A DNA stretch of 64,000 nt from Eledone cirrhosa (GCA_964016885.1 OZ024741.1:230082001-230146000), one strand, 5' to 3'; shown: positions 897 through 20,264, counted from the first letter of the stretch. Notes: a model not told the origin generated them from the sequence alone. Program-made: numbers and translations.

Positions 897-947
897 TTTG
901 CTTACAATTGTTTCCTCCAAACCGAGGTTTGGGTTCTTCGGAGCAAT
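897..947 (-). ncRNA. Type I hammerhead ribozyme motif, CCGAAGA core (3' pLTR)
   Basis: Minus strand ttgct-CCGAAGA-a-cccaaacc tc ggtttgga-g-GAAA-CAATTG-TA-agcaa; stem I ttgct/agcaa; palindromic stem III ACAATTGT. Confidence 0.7.
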
Positions 948-1082
948 TATTTACTGATCTATAACATACTTGACCTCCTTTTCAACCCAAGAGACATATA
1001 AAACATATGCGCATATTGATCAACAGTGGGGTGACATTCATCAAATGATATAGCATGGCAATTTACATATAAAGGTTACAGG

Positions 1083-1311
1083 ATAAAAATAAAAATAAAA
1101 ATAAAAATAAAAATAAAAATAAAAATAAAAATAAAAATAAAAATAAAAATAAAAATAAAAATAAAAATAAAAATAAAAATAAAAATAAAAATAAAAATAA
1201 AAATAAAAATAAAAATAAAAATAAAAATAAAAATAAAAATAAAAATAAAAATAAAAATAAAAATAAAAATAAAAATAAAAATAAAAATAAAAATAAAAAT
1301 AAAAATAAAAA
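1083..1311. repeat. (AAAAAT)n microsatellite inside the 3' pLTR
   Basis: About 38 perfect units; about 5 units at the equivalent site of the other pLTR (~6001-6030). Confidence 0.95.
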
Positions 1312-16189: not shown

Positions 16190-17235
16190 TATAAATGAGA
16201 GGTATAGAGATTGTTTTAGCGAGAAGCTAATAGTATTCTATAACATATATGCGACTATAACGTCAAGATGGGAAAAGTAGTTAACGTAAGATTTAGGAAA
16301 AATAATTCAAACTCATCTCAAAAGAGAATCAGGATACAAATTCATCCACAGAATTTAGTGAAATCCAGGGAAAAATCAATAGACTTTAACTCATGATAAA
16401 ATAAAGTTTAAAACACTTATCCTTCAATTTGGAATAACATCAAATACTCTGTATAGTCTTAAAAGACTATTTCATGAAAACTTTCAGTGGAGATGGTCAC
16501 GGTTGGATTTCAATCGTCAGCAGAGCTCAACAGAAACCATGGCTCTCACAGTATTATAATCCGAAAAAGGGAATTCTAAAACTAGCTAGTTCGCCATCAT
16601 GTGTAATTATGAAAAAGCACATGAGGAAAAATGGGGCTAGTGACGTCAGGATGAAAGTGAATGTTTATTTACAAGAAATAGCAGTCAAATACATTCTGAA
16701 AAAAACTCTACAAAAGAGTTCAGCAAATAGCAATAATTATCACAGTTTTTATAAAAAAACCGGGATTAGTCACAGATAGTTTAAGCACTCTAGGAAAAGA
16801 ATCCGAGTATAAGTATAAATGAGAGGTATAGAGATTGTTTTAGCGAGAAGCTAATAGTATTCTATAACATATATGCGACTATAACGTCAAGATGGGAAAA
16901 GTAGTTAACGTAAGATTTAGGAAAAATAATTCAAACTCATCTCAAAAGAGAATCAGGATACAAATTCATCCACAGAATTTAGTGAAATCCAGGGAAAAAT
17001 CAATAGACCTTTAACTCATGATAAAATAAAGTTTAAAACACTTATCCTTCAATTTGGAATAACATCAAATACTCTGTATAGTCTTAAAAGACTATTTCAT
17101 GAAAACTTTCAGTGGAGATGGTCACGGTTGGATTTCAATCGTCAGCAGAGCTCAACAGAAACCATGGCTCTCACAGTATTATAATCCGAAAAAGGGAATT
17201 CTAAAACTGGCTAGTTCGCCATCATGTGTAATTAT
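16190..17235 (+). repeat. Tandem duplication (~420 bp; 16190-16610 and 16814-17235) in a possible decayed Tc1/mariner transposase fragment
   Basis: Near-identical copies about 624 bp apart. Translations KTFSGDG and MKVNVYLQEI weakly resemble the Tc1 DDE region; only the duplication is certain. Confidence 0.6.
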
Positions 17236-17733
17236 GTATATATGTATGTATTGGAATTTCGTATTTCTAAAGAAATACGGTATGTTTATAAATAAACATT
17301 TAGAAAGCCGAAGCTATGCAAAACACTGGCAGCTATCGCCACCTAGCGGTGTCCAGCAGAAGCATTAGGGACATTTCGAACTGAACTGGTTCTCGTCAGG
17401 ACGATCTCTCCCGCCTTGCGGGAAAACAGGTGAGAATATATGGTTTTTCTGCCTGTGTAAATGAGGTGATTAATCTCATTTGCATATGAAATTGTATAAG
17501 TTAGTTCAACTTATAATAGAATAGAATTAGAATTTAGCTTCGAGTATAGCTGTATACAAATATGTTTTCACCATGCCAGGTCTTTTGGATCGGAAGGGAG
17601 CTTTCTATGTGCATAATCCAGGATCATTTATGACCTAAGGGGCTCTTTATCCTTTTTATCAGAAACACACACACACACGCACACACACATATATATATAT
17701 ATATATATATATATATATATATATATATATATA

Positions 17734-20264
17734 TAATAAATCAGGAAAGAAGAGTGACACGGTTTGTTATACAAAAAAGGTTTTTAATCTCATTGCTGAC
17801 AATTGTTTCTCTGAACTGGTAGGTCTAGAGATCGCTACCCGCTTGTTTTCACGTTATTCGATCACCAATACAAAGTTATAACCAGTCAATTCATCGGAGC
17901 TTGTGAGAATGAAAAGAATATACAGGCATGGCTACTATATATATAGTAGTAATGGCATTCAATCAGAACAATAACAACTATACTAACAATGCTAGCAATA
18001 AATTATTTGAAATAATCACAACACCAATCTAGGTGGGAAGTATAGTATATCTACGATTTTAGCGTGTAAAACTAGCTGACGTGAGGCAGATGTATAAAAT
18101 TGACATGTAAAAGCTGTCATGGGGTGTATTATATATAGTGTAAAGATAAGCCGGTGGCTTTAAACAATGTAGGTCTGGTGGCCGTAAGAATCATTTATTA
18201 TCTGACAGATGAAGAATTCATCACTGTAGTGAGGATAGTAATATTTGTGTGGTCTATATTAGATGAAAGGGTTGTCTAGCTTTCTCATCATCAATAACAT
18301 ACATGTATAAGACAACATTAACAGAGTAGCAATATAATGGGAAAGTTAATACAGAGGTTAAGGAGGCAATATATATATATACATACATACATACACACAA
18401 ACATATATATATATATATATATACATACACATATATACATACATATAAAGAGAAAACATGCTGACTATAATTATAACCGGAGGAAGTTAAAGTTCTGCTG
18501 TAGTAGTATTTTGAAATGTTCTTGGATTTAGGTTCATGTGCTGACAGCAGCTGAGAAGAGATATATTTATGGGTTGATAAGGTACTTACAGACATTAGAG
18601 TGGTATAGAACTAAGAAGGCTAGAATGTACTTAATGATTATATTTCTGTGGTGGTTCATGCAGTGTAGTGGGTATCCTAAGTTGAAAGCTAATTTACGTC
18701 GGTTCGATTCACGGAAGTTTAAATCTTGTGAATTTAGTGGCGATCCTGTGTCTGCAGAAGAGTGATCTTTCTAACTTGTTGTTAAGTAGCCGTTTTACAT
18801 TTCTAAGGATATACAGTAATTCTAGATCACATAGCCTACAGTGGGACATACCCGTACTGTAGGTCTTTGCGGCCGACAACCTCGACCAGTTGATACTGTA
18901 GTTGGTGTTGTTGTCCTTAAGTTCTCAGATATTTTTGGCGAGGGTTGTAGAACCCATAAGTGCACGATTTTTCATTGAGTGTCTGTGCACATACCATCTT
19001 TTTTAAAAAGTAATGCCAAGTGGAGTTATCTGAGTTGACCGTACACATATACACTAGGCTCGAATCAAGGCATCTATTCGCCAATGGGCACCTATCCTGT
19101 AGGTAACAGTTACAGTTTGAGGTGTTATTTCGTGCAGCTTCTACACTGCTGTTTTGTACATTGCTATAAGTGGGTTGTGATTCATGCCCGTTGGGGTTTT
19201 GCTGCTGCGTGCTTGTATGCGCTTGCGGTTGTGATACTGTGATGTGTTTATGCTTATAGTTTGATGCTATGTTGCGCATAGGTGGGGCGGATTCCCTAGA
19301 GATATTTCTGTGGTTGATCTTGCGTATGTGCGATTATATATTTGCTGCCGTAGAGTATGAGAGTTTTATAGTTTTTCTATTGAGTATTTTATAATATCTG
19401 TGTGAAATAGGGAAGTGTTTATCTATTAGTTTAAAGAATGTAGAAAGCAGTCTGGTTTTTACAGAGAAGTTGAAGATTGGGTTGAACCATAGGTATTTTC
19501 TTTCTCTGATTCTTCTATTGTTTCTAGGGTTTACATTATTGGTGTTTGGACCGCTTACTCTAGGTGCTACGTGCCTAACTCTATGTCTAGTCCTGTTACC
19601 TCTATTTTTGTGTGAGCGGTTGGTGTAATTGCTATTAGATTTATTTAAGTTGTCTTTATTCGCTATATACTGCAGTTTATCTCTATGTCCAGCCCTATGT
19701 AATGCTGCGTTATAATAGTTAGCATGTTCATTAAACATTTCTAGGTTTGAGGATAAGCGGGATAGTCTAAGGGTTATACTACGTGCTATGGATCTGATTA
19801 TGGATTTGGGGTGGTTTGAGTTATAACTAATGTAGGCCAGATTTTCATTATTTTTGTGGAAAGGTTCTATTAATCCCGTATTTATATTTAGAGTCACATC
19901 TAGAAAGTTTACCTTCTTATGGTTCAGTTCGTAGGTAATACTTAGGCCTAGTTTTTTTAAGAATGTTCTAATGTTTTTTCTTAATCTTTCCATGCTCTGG
20001 TTGTTTAAGTTCCTAGCTATAAGGAGCGTGTCGTCTCTATAAATCCCTCCTTGGAGGTTACTGAATTCCTTATGTAGGTTGTGTGCTATAAATAGCCCCA
20101 CGACGTCAGTGATTTGCGCCGAGTCATTTAACGTGATCGAATAACGTGAAAACAAGCGGGTAGCGATCTCTAGACCTACCAGTTCAGAGAAACAATTGTC
20201 AGCAATGAGATTAAAAACCTCTTTTGTATAGCAAACCGTGTCACTCTTCTTTCCTGATTTATTA
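17734..20264 (-). mobile_element. Second Naiad-type PLE, 5'-truncated and disrupted, with inverted pLTR segment
   Basis: DSAQITDVVGL, GIYRDD, VNFLDV, WFNP, IKLSYS, CNCx5CPLx3C in ORFs 19334-20380 and 18917-19279; 20133-20264 is an inverted copy of 17734-17865. Confidence 0.9.
17793..17902 (-). ncRNA. Hammerhead motif, CCGAUGA core with long stem-II insertion
   Basis: gct CCGATGA attgactggt..~60 nt..accagttcaga GAAA CAATTG TC agc. Confidence 0.6.

What the first reader, a model, noticed from the sequence alone, without database searches (positions are those of the whole stretch)
897..17902. Three Naiad families share a non-canonical U4C hammerhead core (CCGANGA) and an ACAATTGT palindromic stem III
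Seen: CCGAAGA (897, 5816, 6418), CCGAGGA (14323) and CCGATGA (17891, minus), each followed by a stem II and GAAACAATTGT(A/C). The stem II sequences differ, so the change is shared across diverged families and is unlikely to be decay. Known: the canonical core is CUGANGA, and PLE minimal HHRs with palindromic stem III cleave as dimers. Inference: a lineage-fixed, probably functional U-turn variant. I cannot say whether it is already catalogued.
Basis: partly seen in the sequence, partly recalled or inferred. Interest (0 to 1): 0.75.

Follow-up and report, generated by a model that had tools for sequence, protein, structure and literature searches.

The report
Loosening hammerhead core in Hydra retroelements
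These repeats are Hydra-type Penelope jumping genes whose hammerhead (self-cutting RNA) motif carries C instead of the usual U in thousands of copies, flips between the two letters from family to family, and in sister families has picked up harsher core changes, so it likely cuts slowly and offers a natural test of whether these elements need to cut themselves.

Summary
The motif is real, but three listed coordinates are off and the clade is wrong. The ORF has RT followed by a C-terminal GIY-YIG, with RWR, DKT, CxCx5C and CxxC/CxH: Hydra clade, not Naiad. The five copies come from three insertions. C4 is the family state, not decay: 6,150 short-stem copies genome-wide, and 85 of 91 in a sample chosen by flanks. 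It is not lineage-fixed: U4 and C4 families interleave, with at least five switches, while C3, G5, G8, G12, A13 and A14 never change and the stems covary. U4C is already known from viroids and from CYGANGA search descriptors; I found no paper reporting it in Penelope-like elements. Best reading: a dimer-type hammerhead with slowed, partly dispensable cleavage. Cleavage is untested. The scan noted the same C4 Hydra motif before, in this genome and in others.

The parts
686..1135 (-). 3' pseudo-LTR with tail of element 1 (98% identical to 5605-6053)
898..946 (-). Hammerhead copy 1: C3 at 941, CCGAAGA, stem II, GAAACAATTGTA, predicted cut between 903 and 902; carries a private change at 10.2
3082..5571 (-). 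Open 829-codon frame, RT plus C-terminal GIY-YIG; RWR at 41, ADKT 125, YRDD 357, CxCx5C 688, YIG 722, CxxC 786, CxH 814: Hydra clade
5605..6053 (-). 5' pseudo-LTR of element 1
5816..5864 (-). Hammerhead copy 2: C3 at 5859, predicted cut between 5821 and 5820, about 250 nt upstream of the ORF
6346..6508 (+). Inverted partial pseudo-LTR of element 1 with hammerhead copy 3 (6423-6461)
14223..14400 (+). Short stub of a related short-stem family between (TA)n and (CT)n; hammerhead 14323-14361 with CCGAGGA; stem I position 1.2 is T where relatives have G (local decay)
17733..17905 (-). 3' end of element 2 with long-stem-II hammerhead: C3 at 17897, 81-nt stem II insert, predicted cut between 17798 and 17797
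18718..20135 (-). 5'-truncated, broken RT/EN frame of element 2 (about 40% identical to element 1 in conserved blocks)
20133..20265 (+). Inverted half hammerhead of element 2; begins inside stem II, so it has no CCGANGA box

Best explanation
This is the hammerhead motif in the terminal repeats of Hydra-clade Penelope-like retrotransposons, in a lineage where core position 4 flips between U and C; it likely still cuts, slowly and as a dimer paired through ACAAUUGU, and the elements likely tolerate weak cutting because they are copied from RNA that spans the cut site. Shown: fold anatomy, clade, family-level C4, repeated U/C switches, unchanged catalytic G8 and G12, compensatory stem changes, and genomic copies running through the cut site to ends about 45-50 nt beyond it. 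Inferred: dimer folding (from Cervera 2014), residual activity of C4 (from viroid data), and relaxed selection on cutting speed (from the A6U, A9U and insertion families).
For: Clade motifs. C4 in 85 of 91 full-length copies chosen by flanks alone. Over 26 clusters of 3 or more copies, stem I pairs 2 and 3 are paired in 26 of 26 with 5 and 4 pair types; stem II pairs 2, 3, 5 and 7 in 25 of 26. Parsimony changes within the three group trees: position 4 seven by majority letter (at least five if mixed clusters are left free), N7 seven, H17 four and never to G, helix columns mean 3.7, but C3, G5, G8, G12, A13, A14, A15.1 and U16.1 zero. No cluster has A or G at 4; 0 of the first 100 H-group rows do. 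U4C keeps enough activity for viroid infectivity (PMC3088659; PMC9608096). Monomer stem III is predicted unformed (P about 0.01) while the 8-bp palindrome duplex gives -6.4 kcal/mol. Copies end 44-51 nt or about 200 nt or more past the cut. Hammerhead mutants did not impair insertion by an Anolis element in vitro (PMC11167929). One full-length insertion has G5U in both direct repeats (L117).
Against: No cleavage data exist for these RNAs. In a deep mutational scan all single changes in CUGA gave low activity (PMC9901934, passage). The hammerhead fold is 4-9 kcal/mol above the predicted minimum for window monomers, and C4 strengthens a competing pairing in element 1. A family with C4 plus A6U makes up 30 of the first 100 of 3,089 K-group rows, so abundance does not need an intact core. 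The zero-change counts are partly circular, because most loci were picked by patterns that contain core letters; relieve this only per group. The 26 clusters are related and threshold-dependent, so the shuffles are not probabilities. No pile-up of 5' ends at the cut site was seen in a biased sample.
Confidence: 0.55

Rival explanations
1. The fold is now kept mainly for a non-catalytic job, such as pairing two RNAs through the palindrome or binding the RT/EN protein near the start of copying; cutting is vestigial in C4 families and lost in the A6U family.
For: All family-level core changes found lie in the 5' box (U4C, A6U, insertion after A6, A9U), while GAAACAATTGT is nearly invariant. 10.1-11.1 is paired in only 5 of 26 clusters. 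The Anolis hammerhead cuts only with protein and no RNA reads ended at the cut.
Against: C3, G5 and G8 in the same 5' box never change and H17 is never G, which is what cleavage predicts. The 5' side also has a higher mutation supply, which could explain the asymmetry without selection. One young family has broken the palindrome (ACAAATGT, duplex -0.7 kcal/mol).
Confidence: 0.22
2. C4 is fully active here because the internal loop of stem I, the long stem II or the element's protein compensates for the changed U-turn.
For: Position 4 changes as often as the free position 7, in both directions. Several of the most uniform clusters are C4 (median distance to majority 0-0.02). One paper states that U4C did not affect viroid self-cleavage. 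Perreault 2011 proposes tertiary compensation for variant cores.
Against: Perreault 2011 says U4C considerably decreases activity in vitro. No second change travels with C4 at N7, 10.1-11.1 or H17. All 24 Hydra rows in the published table have CUGANGA.
Confidence: 0.18
3. C4 is post-insertion decay of a canonical core, or a chance pattern.
For: Single copies do decay: the 14323 stub has a broken stem I pair, and 19 of 546 5'-box sites differ from the majority in one family.
Against: 6,150 CCG against 561 CTG short-stem matches; decay runs from C to T at the CpG (about 80 of the first 100 non-C rows); controls near zero.
Confidence: 0.02

Closest known systems
Hydra clade of Penelope-like elements and their hammerheads (Craig et al. 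2021, PMC8557442; seen: passages, section 11, supplement parts 1-2 of 59 and a term search of the supplement)
   Same: C-terminal GIY-YIG, RWK-type and DKT motifs, CxCx5C linker, no CCHH, (TA)n targets, type I hammerhead with short palindromic stem III; a mismatch at 10.1-11.1 is visible in many rows of their table.
   Different: All 24 Hydra rows there have CUGANGA and loops II of about 3-10 nt; GAAACAATTGT was not found in their supplement. Here position 4 is C in half the clusters, stem II can hold 60-85 nt, and some families fix A6U, A9U or an insertion.
Minimal dimer-type hammerheads of Penelope-like elements (Cervera and de la Pena 2014, PMC4209133; seen: parts 1-2 of 4, two of three supplements searched)
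   Same: Pseudo-LTR position, palindromic 15.2-16.2 region, long stem II, low predicted monomer activity, high variability among copies.
   Different: The only core variant in the parts I read is U3-A8; they call G10.1-C11.1 highly conserved, whereas it is rare here; U4C is not mentioned.
U4C (CCGA) hammerheads of viroids: peach latent mosaic viroid variant and a citrus viroid-like RNA (seen: passages of PMC3088659 and PMC9608096; Ambros and Flores 1998 itself not held)
   Same: Same substitution, retained self-cleavage.
   Different: There it is a minority variant in monomer-type ribozymes with loop contacts; here it is the majority state of whole retrotransposon families, in a minimal dimer-type fold.
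Naiad elements (Craig et al. 2021)
   Same: Penelope-like, (TA)n targets, pseudo-LTRs.
   Different: Naiads have an N-terminal endonuclease, CxC and DKA motifs and no canonical hammerhead; none of this fits.

Membership tests
Hydra-clade Penelope-like element | Single ORF, RT then C-terminal GIY-YIG | tested here: met
   YRDD at 357, YIG at 722 of 829
Hydra-clade Penelope-like element | RWK-type N-terminal motif and DKT | tested here: met
   RWR at 41, ADKT at 125; definition
Hydra-clade Penelope-like element | CxCx5C linker, CxxC and CxH around the conserved E and N, no CCHH | tested here: met
   CNCRSSRTC 688, CNLC 786, CQH 814; absence of CCHH judged by reading the sequence
Hydra-clade Penelope-like element | Insertion into (TA)n; direct and inverted pseudo-LTR copies | tested here: met
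Hydra-clade Penelope-like element | Placement with published Hydra proteins in a tree | not tested
   Published proteins were compared by eye only; my trees used window, genome and database proteins
Hydra-clade Penelope-like element | Canonical CUGANGA hammerhead | tested here: not met
   CCGANGA in all three window families; canonical in sister families
Naiad | N-terminal GIY-YIG, CxC domain, DKA motif | tested here: not met
   Endonuclease is C-terminal and the motif is DKT
Type I minimal (dimer-type) hammerhead | Three helices in type I order with covariation | tested here: met
Type I minimal (dimer-type) hammerhead | C3, G5, A6, G8, A9, G12, A13, A14, A15.1-U16.1, H17 | tested here: met
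   All five window copies; A6 and A9 changed in some sister families
Type I minimal (dimer-type) hammerhead | U4 and G10.1-C11.1 | tested here: not met
   C4; 10.1-11.1 is A-G, C-A or A-A in the window and paired in 5 of 26 clusters
Type I minimal (dimer-type) hammerhead | Palindromic stem III able to pair two copies | tested here: met
   ACAAUUGU duplex -6.4 kcal/mol, monomer stem III unformed; computed only
Type I minimal (dimer-type) hammerhead | Site-specific self-cleavage after GUH | not testable with these tools
   No RNA holder listed; needs a cleavage assay

The most novel reading that the evidence does not exclude
This lineage is caught turning its hammerhead from a ribozyme into a non-cutting RNA signal: the 5' catalytic box erodes stepwise (U4C, then A6U; A9U; an insertion after A6) in families of hundreds to thousands of copies while the palindromic 3' box is kept, fed by a copying-time mutation hot spot at the foot of stem II that gives each new insertion its own ribozyme variant.
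Probability: 0.2. Interest if true: 0.75.

Novelty: new variant of a known kind. Interest (0 to 1): 0.5.

Why it matters
What hammerheads do for Penelope-like elements is open: Craig 2021 calls it unclear and asks whether they are parasites, and an in vitro study found cutting unnecessary for insertion. This genome holds sister families that differ at single core positions (U4, C4, C4+A6U, A9U, insertion) and all amplified, so cutting rate can be set directly against success. It also shows that CUGANGA descriptors with short stem II limits miss a large share of these motifs, and it supplies thousands of natural C4 hammerheads where a few viroid variants were known.

Tried and rejected
Naiad assignment: rejected on domain order and motifs. 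Rfam: no hammerhead family among the 150 rows listed of 221; 71 weaker rows were not shown. Pfam: 0 families for 4 frames. One search used a wrong spacer (24 instead of 20) and was redone. An apparent 'A9G' family is better read as a one-base insertion after A6. One search's count of 2,424 includes an internal CAGAGG match and is not an A9 count. Metagenome scan: 14 hits, none with hammerhead stems by eye, taken as chance. Sequencing runs: no RNA holder listed; the three contig sets are one sample, cannot show ends and are not independent. Pile-up of 5' ends at the cut site: none among 369 copies, but the sample was picked for intact cores, so it is inconclusive. A compensating partner for C4 at N7, 10.1-11.1 or H17: none. 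ORF links of L358, L356, L148 and L139 were doubtful and, with L126, L158, L149 and L131, are left out of claims. Quasi-palindrome repair as cause of the hot spot: explains C-to-A at 10.1 in one family, not the rest (by eye). Papers not held: Lunse 2017, Ambros and Flores 1998, Nelson and Uhlenbeck 2008; Lunse 2017 lists many Penelope-associated variants and could already contain C4. One Cervera 2014 supplement could not be searched and figure-only supplements may bear on novelty.

Full report
Observation. All five CCGANGA...GAAACAATTGTH motifs are present, at 941-903 and 5859-5821 (minus), 6423-6461 and 14323-14361 (plus) and 17897-17798 (minus). The pattern did not occur in 200 Markov controls of the window. 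Each motif reads as a type I hammerhead: stem I (GCU/AGC next to the core), CCGANGA, stem II, GAAAC-AAUU-GU, and a cut after GUA or GUC.

Anatomy. The copies belong to three insertions. Element 1 has an open 829-codon frame (3082-5571, minus) between two direct repeats 98% alike, plus an inverted piece; it supplies three copies. The 14323 copy is a stub of about 180 bases between microsatellites. Element 2 is 5'-truncated, with an 81-nt stem II insert and an inverted half copy at 20133-20265.

Clade. The protein has RT first and GIY-YIG last, with RWR, ADKT, CxCx5C, CxxC and CxH. These define the Hydra clade in Craig et al. 2021 (PMC8557442, section 11). Naiads have the endonuclease first and no canonical hammerhead. 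The nearest named database proteins are from Argonauta hians, 41-43% identical, which fits a cephalopod host.

Is C4 the family state? Yes. In the 3.0-Gb own genome the short form gives 6,150 CCG matches against 561 CTG (reversed controls 7 and 6). One family sampled by flanks alone has 830 copies; of the first 100, 91 were full length and 85 of them have C4, 6 have T. With a 20-base stem II, 434 copies lack C4 (by my count of the first 100 rows: 80 T, 13 G, 7 A) and 213 lack G5 (73 A, 21 T, 6 C). So the CpG decays on both strands, with about twice as many C-to-T copies, part of them from a U4 subfamily.

Is it lineage-fixed? No. Long-stem forms add 7,846 matches, 54 C and 46 T in the first 100 rows by my count, a few of them spurious. 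In the group of element 2 (2,628 matches) the first 100 rows hold 73 C, 27 T and no A or G; 69 of 72 rows of three families are C, 19 of 19 rows of their sisters are T, and 9 rows are of a mixed family. In a third group (3,089 matches) one family is U4 in all 28 rows and another C4 in all 30. Protein trees put the C4 families of element 2 inside U4 relatives and a U4 family inside the short C4 clade. DNA trees of 26 clusters, with the 5' box masked, need at least five switches, in both directions under midpoint rooting. The three groups are about 40-47% identical in RT/EN.

Is the fold under selection? Across the 26 clusters (198 of 251 copies with a 5' box, from 315 unique 3' boxes), stem I pairs 2 and 3 hold in 26 of 26 with several pair types, and four stem II pairs in 25 of 26. 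Helix columns change 3.7 times on average, N7 seven times, H17 four times but never to G, position 4 seven times by majority letter; C3, G5, G8, G12, A13, A14, A15.1 and U16.1 do not change. Clusters are related and most loci were picked with core letters in the pattern, so this is support, not a probability. Searches anchored outside the 3' box found it intact in most rows.

The core is loosening beyond position 4. A family with CCGTCGA (C4 plus A6U) makes up 27 exact and 3 decayed rows of the first 100 in the third group; a family with one extra base after A6 makes up 27 rows (14 U4, 12 C4, 1 A4). Several U4 clusters fix A9U. A young C4 family has ACAAATGT, an imperfect palindrome (29 of 100 rows). 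Pair 10.1-11.1 is formed in only 5 of 26 clusters; such mismatches also stand in the published Hydra table. One full-length insertion has G5U in both repeats (L117). A6 changes cost much activity in other hammerheads (PMC7151607, passages; PMC3088659, section 8). Copy number therefore does not prove cleavage.

A mutation hot spot. In the flank-sampled family, positions 10.1-10.3 differ from the majority at 66 of 273 sites (24%), the pairing arm at 4 of 637 (0.6%), the 5' box at 19 of 546 and the 3' box at 8 of 637. The changes go mostly to A or T, do not rise with background divergence (Spearman -0.14, p 0.17), and differ between the two copies of one locus in 5 of 10 pairs. The window's 941 copy carries such a change. 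The cause is unexplained; errors during reverse transcription of the compact hairpin are my guess. The hot spot may bias where family-level changes arise. Cervera 2014 noted extreme variability of these motifs without locating it in the parts I read.

Mechanism. By analogy with Cervera 2014 two repeats would pair through ACAAUUGU to build stem III; the monomer stem is predicted unformed and the duplex gives -6.4 kcal/mol. Genomic copies run through the cut site and end 44-51 nt or about 200 nt or more beyond it, so templates were uncut or rejoined. For an Anolis element, hammerhead mutants did not impair insertion, cutting needed protein, and unprocessed RNA was the main substrate (PMC11167929, part 1 and passages). 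I infer a slowed ribozyme under relaxed selection (0.55), against a mainly non-catalytic signal (0.22) or full compensation (0.18).

Known or new. U4C is known: a viroid variant with lower activity in vitro that still infects (PMC3088659), seen again in a citrus viroid-like RNA (PMC9608096), and allowed as CYGANGA in a search descriptor (PMC13481778, passages). A deep scan found low activity for all single CUGA changes (PMC9901934, passages). Eight full-text searches gave no report of C4, A6U or A9U in Penelope-like elements, and all 24 published Hydra rows are CUGANGA. Lunse 2017 was not held and could contain it. From memory only: Ambros and Flores 1998 found C, but not A or G, tolerated at position 4. 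Other papers opened: PMC6765202, PMC3376415, PMC11014351 and PMC7229834 (passages), 10.64898/2026.07.22.740005 (part 1 of 5); none bore on C4. Earlier scan notes describe the same C4 Hydra motif in this genome and in others; they are unchecked and not independent support.

Verdict. Real, misassigned to Naiad, and a new variant of a known kind. The letter itself is catalogued; its spread through retrotransposon families, its flips and the wider erosion series make the role of these ribozymes testable. Interest 0.5.

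Noticed in passing
L076-L105, L351, L360-L416 (family sample); window 941-903: Positions 10.1-10.3 at the foot of stem II mutate at 24% per site against 0.6% on the pairing arm, independently in the two copies of one locus and without link to age; cause unexplained.
   Followed up: partly
L305, L308, L340, L341: Abundant family with CCGTCGA (C4 plus A6U), about 30% of 3,089 matches by the first 100 rows, with linked endonuclease remnants.
   Followed up: partly
L180, L194, L235, L236, L243, L244, L248, L357: U4 families with fixed A9U; several have the canonical G10.1-C11.1 pair.
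   Followed up: partly
L289, L290, L292, L299, L343-L345: Families with one extra base after A6 (eight-letter 5' box), in both U4 and C4 forms.
   Followed up: partly
L211-L214: Young C4 family whose stem III is ACAAATGT, an imperfect palindrome with a weak predicted duplex.
   Followed up: partly
L116, L117, L118: Both hammerhead copies of one locus share a G5 change; in L117 they flank a full-length frame. L118 has no frame between them and may be a duplication.
   Followed up: partly
window 892-897, 5810-5815, 14365-14370, 17784-17789: An AATAAA or ATTAAA hexamer follows stem I in most families (22,218 genome-wide matches of the 3' box plus ATAAA); it may be a polyadenylation signal or part of the stem I loop. 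It is changed in the 5859 copy.
   Followed up: no
window 9363-9393, 13250-13281, 25519-25574, 63563-63595 (plus), 17399-17366 (minus): Other hammerhead-like motifs with canonical CTGANGA, from other repeats; some look decayed.
   Followed up: no
window 21639-25084: Another Penelope-like endonuclease remnant (23604-24320) between two inverted arms 92% alike.
   Followed up: no
window 43541-49015 and 50330-55310 (minus): An open 1,152-codon endonuclease-RT frame of a non-LTR retrotransposon with an upstream 511-codon frame, and a second, broken copy in tandem.
   Followed up: no
window 34240-36139 (minus) and 42146-42916 (plus): Broken RT frames of two other non-LTR elements.
   Followed up: no
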